64,000 nucleotides of DNA, taken from the NCBI RefSeq assembly GCF_009914755.1, contig NC_060947.1, one strand, 5' to 3'. Of this stretch, positions 22,805-38,800 are shown one piece after another. The notes under the pieces were generated by a model. The model was given only the letters and a program-made list of their open reading frames with translations. It had not been told where the DNA came from and ran no database searches. Origin of the DNA: the human T2T-CHM13v2.0 reference genome, Homo sapiens. A program made the position numbers and the translations under genes. The first letter of the stretch is position 1. The number at the start of each line of letters is the position of its first letter.

Positions 22805-23320
22805 TCAGAGTGGATTAAAAAAATCTATGTGTTGTCTACAAAAAAACCACTTAAAATATAAAAACAGGAGGGTGGAGCCAAGACGGCCGAATAGCAACAG
22901 CTCCAGTCTACAGCTCCCAGCGTGAGCGATGCAGAAGATGGGTGATTTCTGCATTTCCAACTGAGGTACTGGGTTCATCTCACTGGGGAGTGTCGGAAAG
23001 CGGGTGCAGGACAGTGGGTGCAGCGCACCAAGCGTGAGCCGAAGCAGGGCGAGGCATCGCCTCACCCGGGAAGCATAAGAGGTCAGGGAATTCCCTTTCC
23101 TAGTCAAAGAAAGGGGTGACAGATGGCACCTGGAAAATCGGGTCACTCCCACCCTAATACTGCACTTTTCCAACAGTCTTAGCAAACAGCACACCAGGAG
23201 ATTATATCCTGTGCCTGGCTCAGAGGGTCCTATGCCCACGGAGCCTCGATCATTGCTAGCACAGCACTCTGAGATCAAACCACAAGGCACCAGCGAGGCT
23301 GGGGGAGGGGCGCCCGCCAT
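22805..23320 (-). CDS. L1 antisense ORF0-like frame, extended to 171 aa (translation unproven)
   Basis: MAGAPPPASL...GPSEPG...RVGVTRFSRC starts at M44 of ORF 22805..23449; start context gcaATGg. Confidence 0.45.
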   Translation of the reverse strand: MAGAPPPASLVPCGLISECCASNDRGSVGIGPSEPGTGYNLLVCCLLRLLEKCSIRVGVTRFSRCHLSPLSLTRKGNSLTSYASRVRRCLALLRLTLGALHPLSCTRFPTLPSEMNPVPQLEMQKSPIFCIAHAGSCRLELLLFGRLGSTLLFLYFKWFFCRQHIDFFNPL

Positions 23321-23899
23321 TGCCGAGGCTTGAGTAGGTAAACAAACCGGCTGGGAAGCTTGAACTGGGTGGAGCCCACTGCAACTCAAGGAGGCCTGCC
23401 TGTCTGCCTCTGTAGACTCCACCTCTGGGGGCAGGGCATAGCCAAACAAAAGGCAGCAGAAACTTCTGCAGACTTAAATGTCCCTGTCTGAAAGCTTGGA
23501 AGAGAGTAGTGGTTCTCCCAGCACGCAGCTGGAGATCTGAGAACAGACAGATTGCCTCCTCAAGTGGGTCCCTGACTCCCGAGTAGCCTAACTGGGAGGC
23601 ACCCCACAGTAGGGTCAGACTGACACCTCACATGGCTGGGTACTACTCTGAGACAAAACTTCCAGAGGAACAATCAGGCAGCAACACTTGCTGTTCACCA
23701 ATATCCCCTGTTCTGCAGCCTCTGCTGCTGATACCCAGGCAAACAGGGTCTGGAGTGGACGTCCAGCAAACTCCAACAGACCTGTAGCTGAGGGTCCTGA
23801 CTGTTAGAAGGAAAACGAACAAACAGAAAGGACATCCACACCAAAACCCCATCTGTACGTCACCATCATCAAAGACCAAAGGTAGATAAAACCACAAAG
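22867..23899 (+). promoter_or_regulatory. L1 5' UTR with internal sense and antisense promoter
   Basis: CpG-richer 5' UTR upstream of the ORF1 ATG; YY1 core mutated (caagaCggcc); retains the about 129-bp segment (about 23642-23771) that younger L1s lost. Confidence 0.8.
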
Positions 23900-24916
23900 A
23901 TGGGGAAAAAACAGAGTAGAAAAACTGGAAACTCTAAAAATCAGAGCGCCTCTCCTCCTCCAAAGGAACGCAGCTCCTCACCAGCAACGGAACAAAGCTG
24001 GACGGAGAATGACTTTGACGAGTTGAGAGAAGAAGGCTTCAGATGATCAAACTACTCCGAGCTAAAGGAGGAAGTTCGAACCCATGGCAAAGAAGTTAAA
24101 AACCTTGAAAAAAAATTAGACGAATGGCTAACTAGAATAACCAATGCAGAGAAGTCCTTTAAGGACCTGATGGAGCTGAAAACCATGGCATGAGAACTAC
24201 GTGACGAATGCAGAAGCCTCCGTAGCCGATGCGATCAACTGGAAGAAAGGTTATCAGTGACAGAAGATCAAATGAATGAAATGGAGCGAGAAGAGAAGTT
24301 TAAAGAAAAAAGAATAAAAAGAAACGAACAAAGCCTCCAAGAAATATGGGACTGTGTGAAAAGACCAAATCTATCTCTGATTGGTGTACCTGAAAGTGAC
24401 GGGTAGAATGGAACCAAGTTGGAAAACACTCTGCAGGATATTATCCAGGAGAATTTCCCCAATCTAGCAAGGCAGGCCAAGATTCAAATTCAGGAAATAC
24501 AGAGAATGCCACAAAGATACTCCTCGAGAAGAGCAACTCCAAGACACATAATTGTCAAATTCACCAAAGTTGAAATGAAGGAAAAAGTGTTAAGGGCAGC
24601 CAGAGAGAAAGGTCGGGTTACCCAAAAAGGGAAGCCCATCAGACTAACAGCTCATCTCTCAGCAGAAACTCTACAAGCCAGAAGAGAGTGGGGGCCAATA
24701 TTCAACATTCTTAAAGAAAAGAATTTTCAACCCAGAATTTCATATCCAGCCAAACTAAGCTTCATAAGAGAAGGAGAAATAAAATACTTTACAGACAAGC
24801 AAATGCTGAGAGATTTTGTCACCACCAGACCTGCCCTAAAAGAGCTCCTGAAGGAAGCATTAAACATGGAAAGGAAAAACCGGTACCAGCCACTGCAAAA
24901 ACATGCCAAATTGTAG
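23900..24916 (+). pseudogene. L1 ORF1p, disrupted by premature stops
   Basis: atggggaaaaaacag at 23900; in-frame stops upstream of the intact C-terminal part 24419..24916 (ending RYQPLQKHAKL). Confidence 0.9.
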
Positions 24917-24964
24917 AGACCATTGAGGCTAGGAAGAAACTGCATCAACTAACAAGCAAAATAA

Positions 24965-28781
<3,817 letters not shown>

Positions 28782-29890
28782 ACAATGAGAACACATGGAC
28801 ACAGGAAGGGGAACATCACACACCGGGGCCTGTTGTGGGGTGGATGGAAGGGGGAGGGATAGCATTAGGAGATATACCTAATGTTAAATGACGAGTTAAT
28901 GGGTGCAGCGCACCAACATGGCACATGTATACATATGTAACAAACCTGCACATTGTGTACATGTACCCTAAAACTTAAAGTGTAATAAAAAAAGAAAGAA
29001 ATATAAAAACACATATAGATTAAAAGCAAATAAACTATGATAACACTAATCAAAACAAAGTCGAATACACTATATTAATTTCAAACAGAGCAGACTTCAG
29101 GGCAAGGAAAGTTATCAGGGATAAAGAGGGGCAATGCATAATGATAAAGAGGTTAATACTCAAGGAAGACACAGTAATCCCTAATGTGTATACACCTAAC
29201 AATAGAGAATCAAAATACATGAAGCAAAACCTGATAGAATTATAAGGAGAAATACATGAATTCAGTGTTATTGTTGGAGACCAGCACCTCTTTATCAGAA
29301 ATGAACAGATCCAGCAGGCAGAAAATTAGTAAGGACAAAGTTGAACTCAACAGCACCATCATTATGTAATATTCTAAATACTTTGTTGTCATTTCAACAA
29401 TGTTCATAGCATCTTCACTAGGAGTAGATCCCTTCTCAAGAAACCACTTCCTTTGCTCATTCATAAGAAGCAACTCCCCATTCATAAAAGTTTTATCATG
29501 AGATTGTAGCAATTAGGCTCCCCTTCTAATTCTAGTTCTCTTACACTTTCTACCACATCTGCTGCTGTTTCCACCACTGAAGGCTTGAACCCTTCAAAGT
29601 CATCCATAAGGGTTGGAATCAGCTTCTTCCAAACTCTTGTTAATGTTGATATTTTGACCTCCACCATATTTGACCTCCACATATTTGACCTCCATTCAAG
29701 AATCATGAATGTTGTTAATGGCATCTAAATGGTAAATCCTTTCCAGAAGGCTTTCAATTTATTTTGCCCAGATCCATCAGAAAAGTCAGTGTCTGTGATA
29801 GCTATAGCCTTATGAAATGTATTTGCTAACTACTAAGACCTGAAAGTCAAAATTATTCCTTGATCTCAGGGCTCCATAGTGGATGTTGTG

Positions 29891-30182
29891 TGTTTTAGTC
29901 CATTTTTGCACTGCTCTAAAGAACTACTTGAGACTGGGGAATTTACAAAGAAAAGAGGTTTAATTGACTCACAGTTCCACATGGCTGGGGATGCCTCAGG
30001 AAACTTACAATCATGTGGAAGGTGACAGGGAAGCAAGACACGTCTTACATTGGCAGTAGGGAGGTGGGGGGACTGCTGCACACTTTTAAACCATCAGTTC
30101 TTGTGAGAACTCACTATTACAAGAATAGCATAGAGGAAGCTGTCCCCATGATCAAATTATCTCCCATCAGGTCCTTTCTCCG
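29891..30182 (-). mobile_element. THE1D/MSTA-like LTR, truncated
   Basis: tgttttagtccattt...gaggtttaattgactcacagttccacatggctgggg...cccatgatcaaattatctcccatcagg; stops before the other LTR terminus. Confidence 0.85.
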
Positions 30183-30188
30183 AGGTCC

Positions 30189-30404
30189 AAAGTATCTTCC
30201 ACTTTGTTTTGATTAGTGTTATCATAGTTTATCTTTATTTACTTTTAATCTATATGTGTCTTTATATCTAAAGTGTCTTTATATTTAAAGTGTCTTCCAC
30301 TTTGTTTTGATTAGTGTTATCATAGTTTATCTTTATTTACTTTTAATCTATATGTGTCTTTATATCTAAAGTGTCTTTATATTTAAAGTGTCTTTATATT
30401 TAAA
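30189..30404 (-). repeat. 98-bp unit x2 plus 17-bp sub-repeats; inverted copy of nearby L1MC sequence
   Basis: Units 30189-30286 and 30287-30384; the reverse complement matches 22848-22866 joined to 29012-29070. Confidence 0.9.
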
Positions 30405-30921
30405 CTCCCATCTCCCTGGGACAGAGCACCTGGGGGAAGGAGTGGCTGTGGATGCAGCTTCAGCGGACTTAAACGTTCCTGCCTGCTGGCTCTGAAGAGA
30501 GCAGCAGATTTCCCAGCACAGCATTCAAGTTCTGCTAAGGGACAGACTGCCTCCTCAAGTGGGTCCCTGACTCCCATCCTCCTGAGTGGGAGACACCTCC
30601 CAGCAGGGGTTGACAGACACCTCATACAGGAGAGTTTTGGCTGGCATCTTGTGGGTGACCCTCTGGGCGAGGCTTCCAGAGGAAGGAGCAGGCAGCAATC
30701 TTTGCTGTTCCGCAGCCTCTGCTGGTGATACTCAGGCAAACAGGGTCTGGAGTGGACCTCCAGCAAACTCCAGCAGACCTGCAGAAGAGGGGCCTGACTG
30801 TTAGAAGGAAAACTAACAAACGAAAAGCAATAACGTCAACATCAAAAAACAGGATGTTCACACAAAAACCCCATCTGAAGGTCACCAACATCAAAGACCA
30901 AAGGTAGATGAATCTACAAAG

Positions 30922-31946
30922 ATGAGGAAAAACCAGTGCAAAAGGCTGAAAATTCCAAAAACCAGTATGCCTCTTCTCCTCCAAGGGATCACAACTCCTT
31001 GCCAGCAAGGGAACAAAACTGGATAGAGAATGAGTTTGACGAACTGACAGAAGTGGGCTTCAGAAGGTGGGTAATAACAAACTCCTCTGAGCTAAAGGAG
31101 CATGTTCTAACCCAATGCAAAGAAGCTAAGAACCTTGAGAAAAGGTTGCAGGAACTGCTAACTAGAATAACCAGTTTAGAGAAGAACATAAATGACCTGA
31201 TGGAGCTGAAAAACACAGCATGAGAACTTCATGAAGCATACACAAGTATCAATCGCCAAATCACTCAAGCAGAAGAAAGGATATCAGAGATTGAAGATCA
31301 ACTTAATGAAATAAAGTGTGAAGACAAGATTAGAGAAAAAAGAATGAAAAGGAACAAACAAAGCCTCCAAGAAATATGGGACTATGTGAAAAGACCAAAC
31401 CTACGTTTGATTGGTGTACCTGAAAGTGATGGGGAGCATAGAACCAAACTTGAAAACACTCTTCAGGATATTATCCATGAGAACTTCCCCAACCCAGCAA
31501 GGCATGCCAAAATTAAAATTCAGGAAATACAGAGAACACCACAAAGATATTCCTTGAGAAGAGCAATCCCAAGACACATAATCGACAGATTCACCAAGGT
31601 TGAAATGAAGGAAAAAATGTTAAGGGCAGGCAGAGAGAAAGATCGGGTTACCCACAAAGGAAAGCTCATCAGACTAACAGCGGATCTCTCTGCAGAAACC
31701 CTACAAGCCAGAAGAGAGTGGGGGCCAATATTCAACATGCTTAAAGAAAAGATTTCTCAACCCAGAATTTCATATCCAGCCAAACTAAGCTTCATAAGTG
31801 AAGGAGAAATAAAATCCTTTACAGACAAGCAAATGCTGAGGGATTTTGTCACCACCAGGCCTACTTTACAAGAGCTCCTGAAGGAAGCACTAAATATGGA
31901 AAGGAAAAACCAGTACCAGCCACTGCAAAAACATATCAAAATGTAA
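30922..31946 (+). pseudogene. L1 ORF1p, disrupted
   Basis: atgaggaaaaaccag at 30922; fragments 30936..31223 and 31344..31946. Confidence 0.88.
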
Positions 31947-32009
31947 AGACCATCAACACTATGAAGAAACTGCATCAACAAACGGGCAAAAAAACCAGCT
32001 AGTATCATA

Positions 32010-35846
<3,837 letters not shown>

Positions 35847-38800
35847 ACAGTGAGAACACATGGACACGAGGAGGGGAACATCTCACACTGGGGCCTGTCA
35901 GGGGGTGTGGGCTAAGGGAGGGATAGCATTAGGAGAAATACCTAATGTAGATGACGGGTTGATGGGTGCAGTAAGCCACCATGGCTCATGTATGCCTATG
36001 TAACAAACCTTCAAGTCCTGCACATGTATTCCAGAACTTAAAGTATAATAAAAAAACAAAAAATCAGTATTGGCTTCAACTTGAAGTCATCAGCTGCATT
36101 ATCCCTCAGTGAGTGAGTCAAGCCTGTCCTTTGAAGCTTTGAAGCCAGATAGTGACTTCTGTCTAGCTATGAAAGCCCTAGATGGCGTCTACTTCCAATA
36201 TAAGTCCGTTTTATCTACGTTGAAAATCTGTTGATGAAATGTAGCCATCTTTATCAATGTTCTTAGCTAGATCTTCTGGATAACCTGCTGCACCTTCCAC
36301 ATCGGCACCTGCTTCTTCACTTTGCACTTTTATGTTATTGAGATAGCTTCTTTCCTTAAGCCTCATGAACCAACCTCTTCCAGCTTCATACATTTATTTT
36401 GCAGCTTCCTAACCTCTCTCAGCCTTAATAGAATTGAAGAGAGTTAGGGCCTTACTCTGGTTCAGACTTTGGCTTAAGGGAATTTTGTGGCTGGTTTGAT
36501 CTTCTATCCAGACCACTAAAATTTTCCCCATATCAGCAATAAGGCTTTTTTAAACTTTCTTACCATTTGTGCATTCCCTCGAGTAGCACTTCTAACTTCC
36601 TTCAAGAACTTTTCCTTTGCATTTATAAGTTGGCTAACTATTTGGCAAAAGAGGCTTAGCTTTTGACCTATTTTGGATTTTGACATGCTTTCCTCACTAA
36701 CCTTAATCATTTCTAGCTTTTGATTTAAAGTGAGAAATGTGTGAGTCTTCCTTTCATTGGAACACGTAGAGGCCATTATAAGGATATTAACTGACCCAAT
36801 TCAATATTATTGTGTCTCAGGGAATAGGGAGAACTGAGGAGAGGGAGAGAGATGGGAGAATAGCCAGTCAGTGGAGCAGTCAGAACACACACAATATTTA
36901 ACAATTAAGTTTACCAACTTATATGGATGCAGTTCATGGAGCCCCAAAACAATTACAATAACAACCTCAAAGACCACTGATCACAAATCATCATTAACAG
37001 ATAGAATAATAATGAAAAAATTTGAAATAATGTGAGAATTACCAATATGTGACACAGATACATGAAGTGAGCATATGCTATTGGGAAAATGTCACTGATA
37101 GACTTTCTCAATGCAGGGTTAATACAAACCTTCAATTTGTAAAAAAGCATAGTATCTGTGAAACACAATAAAGAGAATCACAATAAAATGAAGTTTGTTT
37201 GTATCAAAAATGAAAGTGAAAATATCAGCACAGTTTCTATGGACATTGAAAGATAACAATGGAATATTGTGAACAACTCTGTGCCCACAAATTTGATAAC
37301 CTAGGTGAAATGCATGAATTCTTTAAAAGACATAATCTGCCAAAACTCATACAAGTAGAAATAGGCAATCTGAATAGGCCTATATCTATAAAATAAATTG
37401 AATCAATAGTTAACACCTTTGAAAACAAAATGTACCAGCTCCAGCTGGGTTCACTGATAAATTATACCAAACATTTAAGTGTGAAATTATATCAATTCTC
37501 TACAATCTCTTCTAGAAGATAGAAGCCAAGGGAATTCTTCCTAACTCATTCTGTGATGTCAGCGTTATGCTAACACTGAACCTGACAAAGATGTTACAAG
37601 AAAAGAAAATAACAGACCAATATCTCTCGTGAGCATAGACGTAAACATCCTCAATAAAATATTAACAAATCAAATCCAAGAATGTATAAAAAGAATTATA
37701 CCCTACAACCAAGTGAGATTTATCCCAGGTATGCAAGATTGGTTTAACATTTGAAAATCAATTAATGTAATCTATTATATCAACAGGCTAAAGAAGAAAA
37801 AAAATCACCTGATCATATTAATAGATGCAGAAAAAGCATTTAACAAAATCCAACACCTATTCATGATAAAACTCTCAGCAAACAAGGAATAGAGAAGAGC
37901 TTCTTCAACTTGATAAAGAACATCTGCAAAACTCTCAGAGCTAACATCATACTTAATGGTAAGAAACTCAAAGCTGTCCCACTAAGATCAGAAACAAGGT
38001 TAGGATGTTCTCTCTCACCACTTCTTTTCAACATTGCACTGGAAGTCCCAGCTAATGCCATAAAACAATAAAAGGAAATAACAGGTATACAGACTAGGAG
38101 GGAAGAACTCAAACTATCTTTTGTTTGCGGATGACGTAATTGTCTATGTAGAAAATCCAAAATAACTGACCAAAAAATTACTGGAACTAATAAGCAATTA
38201 TGGCAAAATTGTGGGACACAAGGTTAATATACAAAAATCAATTGCTTTCCCATATATCAGAGCAAGTGGAATTTGAAATTAAAAACACATTAGCATTCAC
38301 ATTAGCACTCCTAATATGAAATATTTAGGTATAAATCCAACAAAATATGTACAAGATCTATATTAGGAAAACTACAAAACTCTAATGAAAAATATCAAAG
38401 AGTGAAATAAATAAAGGGATATTCTATGCTCATAGATAGGAAGACTCAATATTATGAAGATATCAGTTCTTCTGATCTTGAGCTAAAGAGTCAATGCAAT
38501 TCCCATCAGAATCCTAGCAAGTCCAATTTTGTGGTTATCAATAAACTGATTTTAACATTTATTTAGAGAGGCAAAACACCCAGAACAGCCCTCTGAATAT
38601 TGAAAGATAAGAACAAAATTAAGGGACTGACACCACCCTACTTCAAGATTTACTATAAAGCTACAGTAATCAAGACAGTGTAGTACTGGTAAAAGAATAG
38701 ACAAATAGATCAGTGGAATATAATAGAGAGGCCAGAAATAGACTCATACATATAGTCAACTTATCTTTAACAAAGGAGCAAAGGCAATGCAATAAAGCAA

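What the first reader, a model, noticed from the sequence alone, without database searches (positions are those of the whole stretch)
30183..30404. Templated inverted filler preserving the empty site of the later L1PA4 insertion
The reverse complement reads cacttta(a/g)atataaagacacatatagattaaaagtaaataaagataaactatgataacactaatcaaaacaaagtggaa. This matches 22848-22866 joined directly to 29012-29070, i.e. the locus without the 6.1-kb L1PA4. It shares the local tatgataacactaatcaaaacaaagt wording and keeps 6 bp (agataa) that the source has lost. It is present as two 98-bp units with 17-bp stutters and sits exactly at the L1PA7 5' junction. Inference: it was copied from about 1.2 kb away during L1PA7 integration, before L1PA4 arrived. 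Its cactttaaat, against today's cacttaaaat, hints that a later substitution created the TT/AAAA site L1PA4 used.
Basis: partly seen in the sequence, partly recalled or inferred. Interest (0 to 1): 0.8.

Follow-up and report, generated by a model that had tools for sequence, protein, structure and literature searches.

The report
Locally copied filler at L1 junction
A short inverted copy of a neighbouring ancient repeat was stitched in when an old L1 retrotransposon landed messily here; it is a neat molecular fossil, but of a kind of repair scar already described.

Summary
Window 30189-30404 is a 98-nt unit present 2.1 times, with 17-nt stutters. Its reverse complement is a piece of an old L1 ORF2 5' region. 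It abuts the 5' end of a 5'-truncated older L1PA (30402-36060).

A local origin is strongly supported.
- Across the 3.1-Gb genome, the filler and the old L1 piece at 22848-22866 + 29012-29073 are reciprocal best matches.
- A 32-mer is identical in the source and both units. No other place has fewer than 3 mismatches.
- The two form the only well-supported clade (98/92) among 29 copies.
- The filler runs unbroken across the site where the younger full-length L1PA (22867-28998, 13-nt TSD) now sits. It was therefore copied before that insertion.

New context: filler plus older L1 replace about 60 nt of a MaLR-type LTR and about 250-260 nt of a Tigger-like transposon, with no TSD. This looks like an L1 insertion with target deletion and a locally templated 5' filler. 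That the filler arose in the same event is inferred, not shown.

The 98-nt doubling is younger (98/98 identical). The claim that a substitution created the younger L1's endonuclease site cannot be decided. Close precedents are in print. Interest is low to moderate.

The parts
22848..22866 (+). Left part of the template (source): old L1, ORF2 5' region, immediately left of the younger L1PA
   Evidence: Read. Aligns to the L1-proximal end of each filler unit.
22867..28998 (+). Younger full-length L1PA (6132 nt) that later split the source; flanked by a 13-nt TSD at 22854-22866 and 28999-29011
   Evidence: Sequence read. Nearest genomic copies are 96-97% identical (39 non-self hits). CpG 10.6 per kb.
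29012..29073 (+). Right part of the template (source): old L1 ORF2 5' region; lacks 6 nt that the filler keeps
   Evidence: Its best non-self hits in the whole genome are the two filler units, at 96.9 and 91.5 bits; the next hit is 59.9. 32-mer test. tblastn to the younger L1's ORF2 piece, aa 42-177, 34-58% identity, E 2e-17.
29362..29891 (.). Left part of a Tigger-like DNA transposon (name recalled, not tested)
   Evidence: Hits at 82-84% identity among 3028 candidates. Mapped on 11 other copies.
29892..30182 (-). MaLR-type solo LTR (name recalled) inserted in the Tigger-like element; lacks about 60 nt at its right end
   Evidence: Hits at 78-84% identity covering 29897 to 30174-30183. 10 of 10 aligned copies run on about 60 nt to a common terminus with no A-tail.
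30183..30188 (.). About 5 nt (up to 12, through 30194) of unassigned sequence between LTR and filler
   Evidence: No second match of the 14-mer 30182-30195 in the window at up to 2 mismatches. No match in 6 reference segments of the deleted Tigger stretch at up to 3 substitutions.
30189..30404 (-). Filler: inverted copy of the source, about 81-84 nt of template, with 17-nt stutters, now doubled by a 98-nt tandem duplication
30402..36060 (+). Older L1PA, 5'-truncated about 540 nt into the 5' UTR, with a short A-rich tail; shares 3 nt (AAA, 30402-30404) with the filler's end
   Evidence: Nearest copies are 92-94% identical (39 non-self hits). CpG 5.7 per kb. The 3' end was read.
36061..37205 (.). 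Right part of the same Tigger-like element; 247-261 nt of the element are missing between 29891 and 36061
   Evidence: 6 reference copies.

Best explanation
The filler is a repair scar with no function. An older L1PA integrated in + orientation into a Tigger-like element that already carried a MaLR-type LTR. Reverse transcription started at a T-run/A site in the Tigger (the present 36060/36061). The upstream end of the break was lost or resected back into the LTR, about 310-320 nt in all, so no target-site duplication formed. Before the two ends were joined, one 3' end annealed by a few bases to the old L1 piece about 1.1 kb upstream, in the opposite orientation. That end was either the resected upstream top strand or the L1 cDNA. 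It was extended over about 81-84 nt, slipped on a CAC...CAC 17-nt repeat to give the stutters, and then paired with the other end through AAA. This is synthesis-dependent, microhomology-mediated end joining. At that time the template was still uninterrupted. Later it acquired several substitutions and a 6-nt loss, and was then split by the younger full-length L1PA. Much later a 98-nt tandem duplication doubled the filler. Shown: the local origin, the order relative to the younger L1, the missing target sequence, and the lack of a TSD. Inferred: that filler, deletion and older L1 arose in one event, and which polymerase and strand did the copying.
For: 1. Local origin, forward search. With the 98-nt unit as query against the 3.1-Gb genome, 40 of 319 candidates were scored. 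The best non-self hit is the source's right part: 89.7 bits on only 71 nt.
2. With the younger L1 cut out in silico, the 84-nt core scores 99.6 bits on the local site. The best of 34 other loci scores 88.7.
3. Reciprocal search. The source finds the two units at 96.9 and 91.5 bits; the next hit is 59.9 (5 of 5 candidates scored).
4. A 32-mer is identical in the source and both units. There are 0 places with 1-2 mismatches and 5 places with 3 mismatches elsewhere.
5. A 33-mer over the filler's own deletion junction occurs only in the two units at up to 3 mismatches.
6. Filler and source share 9 minority states and an 8-column gap against 27 other copies.
7. They form the only starred branch, 98/92, of 26 inner branches in a maximum-likelihood tree of 29 rows.
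8. Dating. The 6/78 substitutions (7.7%) are like the 6-8% separating the older L1 from its nearest copies.
9. Junction anatomy. L1 homology starts at 30402 (35 of 39 hits). There is no TSD beyond AAA. 247-261 nt of Tigger are missing (6 reference copies), and about 60 nt of LTR are missing (10 of 10 copies).
10. Order of events. The G-to-A change at 22863 is present in both TSD copies of the younger L1 (also at 29008) but absent from the filler.
11. Precedents. Sen et al. 2007 (PMC1920257, passages read) describe 98 extra nt at an L1 5' end matching a local segment, read as SDSA. The Mendez-Dorantes et al. preprint (PMC11702581, passages and section 13 read) reports templated insertions and inverted duplications at L1 insertion sites.
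Against: - No orthologous locus from another primate could be examined. The pre-insertion state is inferred from paralogous Tigger and LTR copies only.
- The genome search scores only the best candidates (40 of 319), so a closer distant copy is not formally excluded. The two pattern searches argue against one.
- From the filler's side the margin is modest: 99.6 against 88.7 bits.
- All 9 shared minority states lie in the right half of the unit. The left 38 nt of the filler simply carry the family's common states, so they do not on their own point to the local copy.
- Branch lengths since the split are lopsided: filler 0.0032, source 0.082. About 5-6 changes are on the source side and 1 on the filler side. 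Under equal rates this has a one-sided probability of about 0.06.
- The microhomologies (AAA; GTAT/ATAC) are short and lie in AT-rich sequence, so chance can give them.
- The A-rich tail and the T-run/A target suggest endonuclease-dependent priming. This differs from the endonuclease-independent cases in which extra nucleotides were catalogued.
Confidence: 0.7

Rival explanations
1. Two-step history. An earlier double-strand break, unrelated to L1, was repaired with a roughly 310-320-nt deletion and the locally templated inverted insertion. The older L1 later inserted at the filler/Tigger joint, using the TTTAAA/T stretch as its target and leaving a TSD of 0-3 nt.
For: The filler's end (...TTTAAA) and the Tigger sequence at the resumption point (...TAAAT in 6 of 6 reference copies) share TAAA. 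That would be a typical microhomology joint without any L1. The joint would itself be a T-run/A site attractive to the L1 endonuclease. Local origin of the filler fits this history equally well.
Against: It needs an L1 to land exactly on an older repair joint and to leave no recognisable TSD. L1 insertions with target deletions and extra 5' nucleotides are a described single-event outcome (PMC1920257; PMC11702581).
Confidence: 0.15
2. RNA-templated filler. The L1 reverse transcriptase switched from the L1 RNA, about 540 nt from its 5' end, to a local transcript running antisense through the old L1 piece. It copied about 84 nt of that transcript before the cDNA was joined to the upstream end.
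For: The orientation fits. A second RNA would appear in its own sense directly 5' of the L1, and here that sense is antisense to the source. L1 chimeras with other RNAs are known (PMC1920257, passages read; PMC13174262, search listing and abstract start only). A nascent local transcript would explain why the neighbour was copied.
Against: No evidence of such a transcript: no gene is annotated in the window (hub note), and none was tested here. The product is identical to that of DNA-templated synthesis, so the sequence cannot separate the two.
Confidence: 0.1
3. The filler is a remnant of an independent old-L1 insertion in minus orientation, of the same subfamily as the neighbour. Any resemblance is family resemblance, perhaps sharpened by gene conversion between the inverted copies.
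For: Other copies reach 83-88% identity to the filler. The left 38 nt of the filler carry only common family states. One distant copy (L022) shares a 20-nt run of the 'local wording'.
Against: The two are reciprocal best matches in the genome, with a 37-bit gap from the source's side. The 32/32 identity has no other place under 3 mismatches. The clade has 98/92 support. An 84-nt island from the 5' part of ORF2, directly abutted by an LTR on the side where about 4 kb more of a minus-strand L1 should follow, is not what a retrotransposed L1 remnant looks like.
Confidence: 0.03

Closest known systems
Non-classical L1 insertions with 'extra nucleotides' (Sen et al. 2007, Nucleic Acids Res 35:3741, PMC1920257; passages read)
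   Same: [quoted passage not shown] In their locus NCLI48, 98 extra nt at the 5' end match a local segment at 96% and are read as synthesis-dependent strand annealing.
   Different: Their set deviates from the endonuclease site and is often 3'-truncated. Here the L1 keeps its 3' end and an A-rich tail at a T-run/A site. Here the template lies outside the deleted stretch, about 1.1 kb upstream, and is copied in inverted orientation with 17-nt stutters.
L1 insertion-mediated deletion
   Same: Endonuclease-type priming with a poly(A) tail, loss of target DNA, and no TSD.
   Different: A templated filler is not a defining part of that class. Here the deletion is inferred from paralogous copies and not from an orthologous empty site.
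Templated insertions and local inverted duplications at experimental L1 insertion sites (Mendez-Dorantes et al. preprint, PMC11702581; abstract passage, section 13 and foldback passages read)
   Same: Deletions, inversions, inverted duplications and templated insertions are reported at L1 insertion sites. They are attributed to processing of ORF2p-made ends, with microhomology at the 5' junctions of truncated insertions.
   Different: Those are fresh events in cultured cells. This is a fixed germline event, dated by divergence to the age of an old L1PA subfamily. The details of their figures were not seen.
Polymerase-theta-type templated insertions in alternative end joining (general knowledge; review PMC12426944, search listing only)
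   Same: A copy of nearby sequence in direct or inverted orientation, short microhomologies at both joints, and repeated start-stop synthesis giving stutters.
   Different: Typical tracts are a few to a few tens of nt copied from very close to the break. Here there are about 84 nt copied from 1.1 kb away. The enzyme cannot be inferred from sequence.
Twin-priming 5' inversion of L1 (recalled)
   Same: An inverted L1-derived segment at the 5' side of a truncated L1.
   Different: In twin priming the inverted part comes from the same L1 RNA. Here it is an ancient L1 piece whose region is only 34-58% identical at protein level to a young L1PA, and its closest relative is the neighbour.

Membership tests
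L1 insertion with target-site deletion (L1IMD / non-classical insertion) | No target-site duplication flanking the L1 | tested here: met
   The left flank ends ...TATATTTAAA. The right flank after the A-rich tail reads TCAGTATTGG. Nothing beyond AAA is shared.
L1 insertion with target-site deletion (L1IMD / non-classical insertion) | Target DNA present in the pre-insertion allele is missing | tested here: inconclusive
   By comparison with paralogous copies, 247-261 nt of Tigger (6 copies) and about 60 nt of LTR (10 of 10 copies) are missing. The orthologous empty site could not be examined.
L1 insertion with target-site deletion (L1IMD / non-classical insertion) | Extra non-L1 nucleotides at a junction (frequent in the non-classical set) | tested here: met
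   216-222 nt lie between the LTR and the L1 5' end.
Endonuclease-independent L1 insertion (Sen et al. 2007 sense) | Integration site deviates from the endonuclease consensus; often 3' truncation or no poly(A) | tested here: not met
   The L1 3' end and a 14-nt A-rich tail are present. Reference Tigger copies read ...GGTAAATGA at the site, that is ATTT/AC on the primed strand. The consensus TTTT/AA is recalled.
Locally templated insertion by SDSA / microhomology-mediated end joining | The inserted tract matches a nearby sequence better than any other in the genome | tested here: met
Locally templated insertion by SDSA / microhomology-mediated end joining | Microhomology at the joints | tested here: inconclusive
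   AAA at the filler/L1 joint. GTAT/ATAC, possibly more, at the flank/filler joint. Both are short and AT-rich, and 5-12 nt remain unassigned.
Locally templated insertion by SDSA / microhomology-mediated end joining | Dependence on a given polymerase (theta or delta) | not testable with these tools
   Needs genetics in an L1 reporter assay.
Twin-priming 5' inversion | The inverted segment derives from the same L1 RNA as the direct segment | tested here: not met
   The inverted tract is an old-L1 sequence whose nearest relative is the neighbouring copy. The source region is only 34-58% identical at protein level to L1PA ORF2.
5' transduction | A full-length L1 preceded by sequence from upstream of its source element, in the same orientation | tested here: not met
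   The L1 starts about 540 nt inside the 5' UTR. Five of five other copies continue upstream with L1 sequence.

The most novel reading that the evidence does not exclude
The three 17-nt stutters next to the L1 may record repeated cycles of copying, release and re-annealing. On this reading the cycles stopped only when the nascent filler end (...CTTTATATTTAAA) could pair with the L1 cDNA. Other copies of this L1 read ...CTTATAGATAAAA just upstream of the truncation point, an imperfect match of about 9-10 of 13. The templated filler would then have chosen where the L1 was truncated. The locus would be a roughly 30-million-year-old germline record of polymerase-theta-like iterative synthesis taking part in L1 5'-end attachment. 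A smaller add-on: the later T-to-A change at 22853 improved the endonuclease site that the younger L1 then used.
Probability: 0.15. Interest if true: 0.45.

Novelty: new member of a known kind. Interest (0 to 1): 0.3.

Why it matters
The locus is a clean, datable example of how L1 integration intermediates are resolved in the primate germline. It shows target loss, a filler of about 84 nt copied in inverted orientation from 1.1 kb away, and short homologies at both joints. Because the template was later mutated and split by a younger L1, the filler acts as a frozen copy of the older allele. It orders three events: copying, then the G-to-A change at 22863, then the younger L1's insertion. It has no evident function and lies in a gene-free stretch. 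Its value is as a worked case for cataloguing templated fillers at old L1 junctions. It is also a caution for repeat annotation: a short inverted old-L1 island beside a young L1 need not be an independent insertion.

Tried and rejected
- Twin priming and 5' transduction were rejected (see the membership tests).
- An independent minus-strand old-L1 remnant was rejected on the genome-wide tests and on its structure.
- I first took 29897-30183 for an L1 3' end, from memory. Aligning 10 other copies showed a common terminus without an A-tail, so I now read it as a MaLR-type LTR. That name is also recalled.
- Origin of the 5-12 unassigned nt at 30183-30194: there is no second match in the window (1 match, itself; 51 of 100 shuffles give at least 1 match). 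There is none in 6 reference segments of the deleted Tigger stretch. A resemblance to the LTR's own terminal bases was seen by eye only and was not tested.
- A possible degenerate TSD (AAAGTAT... on the left against AAATCAGTAT... on the right) was considered and dropped. It needs two gaps, and the sequence to its left is LTR, not Tigger.
- No primate orthologues, no RepeatMasker or Dfam, and no other human assemblies were available. Subfamily names, presence or absence across species, and polymorphism of the 98-nt doubling were therefore not tested.
- Literature. Three searches were answered. None of the listings showed a paper on this locus, but no search used the locus or its coordinates as a term. 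Supplements were not opened.

Full report
**What is there**

Window 30189-30394 is a tandem array with a 98-nt period: 2.1 copies, 99% matches. Inside it are two 17-nt arrays, at 30244-30296 and 30342-30404. Units 30197-30294 and 30295-30392 are identical at 98 of 98 positions.

Read on the minus strand, each unit has two or three 17-nt repeats followed by 64 nt. Together these read as one pass over the 5' part of an old L1 ORF2. The same stretch occurs on the plus strand at 22848-22866 and 29012-29073, on either side of a full-length younger L1PA (22867-28998). That L1PA is flanked by a 13-nt target-site duplication at 22854-22866 and 28999-29011.

With the younger L1 removed, the 84-nt core of the filler aligns end to end with 6 substitutions and one 6-nt gap. 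The source region aligns at protein level to ORF2 residues 42-177 of the younger L1 at 34-58% identity, E 2e-17. It is therefore an ancient L1 piece from the endonuclease end of ORF2. The name L1MC was not checked.

**Is the neighbour really the template?**

Any copy of that old L1 family would look continuous across the younger L1's empty site. The question is therefore whether the filler is closer to the neighbour than to the family at large. The window's own assembly (3.1 Gb) could be searched.

- Forward search. With the 98-nt unit as query, 319 candidates were found and 40 were scored. After the two units themselves, the best hit is the source's right part: 89.7 bits on 71 nt. Distant copies follow at 88.7, 87.8, 87.8 and 86.9 bits.
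- With the empty site rebuilt by slicing and the same scoring, the core gives 99.6 bits on the local site. The best of 34 other loci gives 88.7.
- Reciprocal search. This result is much clearer. The source's right part finds the two units at 96.9 and 91.5 bits, and nothing else above 59.9 (5 candidates, all scored).
- A 32-mer from the source is found with 0 mismatches at exactly three places: the source and the two units. No place has 1 or 2 mismatches, and five places elsewhere have 3. The reversed control pattern gave 0 hits.
- A 33-mer across the filler's own internal deletion junction occurs only in the two units at up to 3 mismatches.
- Against 27 distant copies, filler and source share 9 minority states and an 8-column gap.
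- In a maximum-likelihood tree of 29 rows they form the only strongly supported branch, 98/92, of 26 inner branches.

I take local origin as established, at about 0.93.

**Results that pull the other way**

- All nine shared minority states lie in the right half of the unit. The left 38 nt of the filler carry only the family's common states and so say nothing about the template.
- Several shared states are not rare in the family: 7 to 10 of 27 copies at four of the columns.
- The changes since the split are lopsided. At core positions 6, 16 and 35 and at the 6-nt gap, the filler has the state of 24-27 of 27 copies and the source is the odd one. At positions 76 and 80 the source's states are seen in 0 and 2 of 27 copies.
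- Only position 8 is private to the filler, and only in one of the 17-nt repeats.
- The tree gives terminal branches of 0.0032 for the filler and 0.082 for the source. With about seven events this has a one-sided probability near 0.06 under equal rates. I treat it as chance but list it as unexplained.

**Surroundings**

- 29362-29891 and 36061 to about 37205 are two parts of one Tigger-like DNA transposon. In six other copies, 247-261 nt lie between the points where the window copy stops and resumes.
- 29892-30182 is a repeat whose other copies all run on about 60 nt further, to a common terminus followed by unrelated sequence without an A-tail (10 of 10 copies). I read it as a MaLR-type solo LTR in minus orientation. 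That name is recalled. It is complete on its left side and cut on its right.
- Homology to other copies of the older L1PA starts at 30402 in 35 of 39 non-self hits. This is about 540 nt inside the 5' UTR, by comparison with the full-length L1 in the window.
- The older L1 ends in a 14-nt A-rich tail at about 36060.

The order is therefore: Tigger, LTR cut short, 5-12 unassigned nt, filler, older L1, Tigger resuming about 255 nt downstream. No target-site duplication is present beyond AAA. Filler and older L1 together replace about 310-320 nt of target.

**Timing**

- The older L1's nearest genomic copies are 92-94% identical. The younger L1's nearest copies are 96-97% identical (39 non-self hits each). 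CpG density is 5.7 against 10.6 per kb. The L1 that carries the filler is thus clearly the older.
- The 7.7% substitution distance between filler and source (6 of 78) is about the distance between the older L1 and its nearest relatives. Copying at about the time of that L1's insertion is therefore consistent, though the error is wide.
- The filler has G where the source has A at 22863. Both copies of the younger L1's TSD carry the A (22863 and 29008). The order is copying, then substitution, then the younger L1's insertion.
- The two 98-nt units show no difference. At the 3-4% pairwise divergence typical of the younger L1's generation, about 3-4 differences would be expected, and the Poisson probability of none is about 0.03. 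The doubling is therefore recent, or has been homogenised. It is not part of the original event.
- A nine-base near-repeat (AGAYACTTT) at both ends of the unit is a plausible slippage substrate.

**Mechanism**

I favour one event. The L1 endonuclease nicked the Tigger at a T-run/A site; reference copies read ...GGTAAATGA there. Reverse transcription then ran to about 540 nt from the RNA's 5' end. The upstream end was lost back into the LTR.

One free 3' end then annealed to the old L1 piece 1.1 kb upstream in inverted orientation and was extended over about 81-84 nt. The flank-side joint can be written with GTAT pairing to ATAC at 29066-29069. Synthesis slipped on the CAC...CAC 17-nt repeat. 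The new end was joined to the other side through AAA (30402-30404).

The product is the same whether the upstream top strand folded back on its own resected strand or the cDNA end copied the opposite strand. It is also the same if the reverse transcriptase copied a local antisense RNA. Sequence cannot separate these possibilities.

The main rival is a two-step history in which an older repair scar was later hit by the L1. It is favoured by a TAAA overlap between the filler's end and the Tigger resumption point. It needs an L1 to land exactly on the joint and to leave no TSD.

**Comparison with what is known**

- Sen et al. 2007 (PMC1920257; passages read) catalogued L1 insertions without TSDs. 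In that set, 15 of 21 carried 4-312 'extra nucleotides' and 18 had target deletions. One locus had 98 extra nt at the L1's 5' end matching a local segment at 96%, read as synthesis-dependent strand annealing.
- The Mendez-Dorantes et al. preprint (PMC11702581; passages and section 13 read) reports deletions, inversions, inverted duplications and templated insertions at experimental L1 insertion sites. It also reports microhomology at the 5' junctions of truncated insertions.
- The present locus differs in detail. It has an A-tail and a passable endonuclease site, so it is closer to L1 insertion-mediated deletion (Han et al. 2005, recalled and not seen). Its template lies outside the deleted stretch, 1.1 kb away, and is inverted and stuttered.
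- It is a new member of a known kind.

The A at 22853 is derived: T is found in 25 of 27 copies and in the filler. It lies just outside the unambiguous TSD, so it cannot be dated relative to the younger L1. The ancestral reading still offers a T-run followed by A on the primed strand. The hint is possible but neither needed nor testable here.

**Verdict**

Local templating before the younger L1's arrival is well supported. Simultaneity with the older L1's integration is likely, at about 0.75 given local origin, but unproven. The doubling is a later event. The finding is a tidy fossil of a described repair outcome. Interest is 0.3.

Noticed in passing
window 29892-30182: This stretch looks at first like an L1 3' end. 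Its relatives all end at a common terminus without an A-tail (10 of 10 copies). It is best read as a MaLR-type solo LTR in minus orientation, inserted in the Tigger-like element and cut about 60 nt short on its right side.
   Followed up: partly
window 29362: The old L1 (plus strand, only about 350 nt into ORF2) stops abruptly against an internal point of the Tigger-like element. This is an older truncation or rearrangement joint. It was not examined, and whether the rest of the old L1 lies beyond 37205 was not checked.
   Followed up: no
window 29650-29700: A short tandem repeat inside the Tigger-like element: a motif of about 14-15 nt (..ATTTGACCTCCA..) read three times in a row. Seen by eye.
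   Followed up: no
window 22867-28998: The younger L1PA is full length (6132 nt) with a clean 13-nt TSD, but its reading frames are broken. The longest open stretches are 430 and 365 codons.
   Followed up: partly
window 29059-29062: The source reads GTCGAA where the filler reads GTGGAA, and 0 of 27 other copies have C at that column. A CpG was therefore created in the source after the copying. This is unusual for an old repeat, where CpGs normally decay.
   Followed up: partly
filler versus source, whole tract: The changes since the split are unequal: about 5-6 on the source side and 1 on the filler side. Terminal branches are 0.082 against 0.0032. This may be chance (about 0.06) or locally raised mutation near the later L1 insertion. 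It is unexplained.
   Followed up: partly
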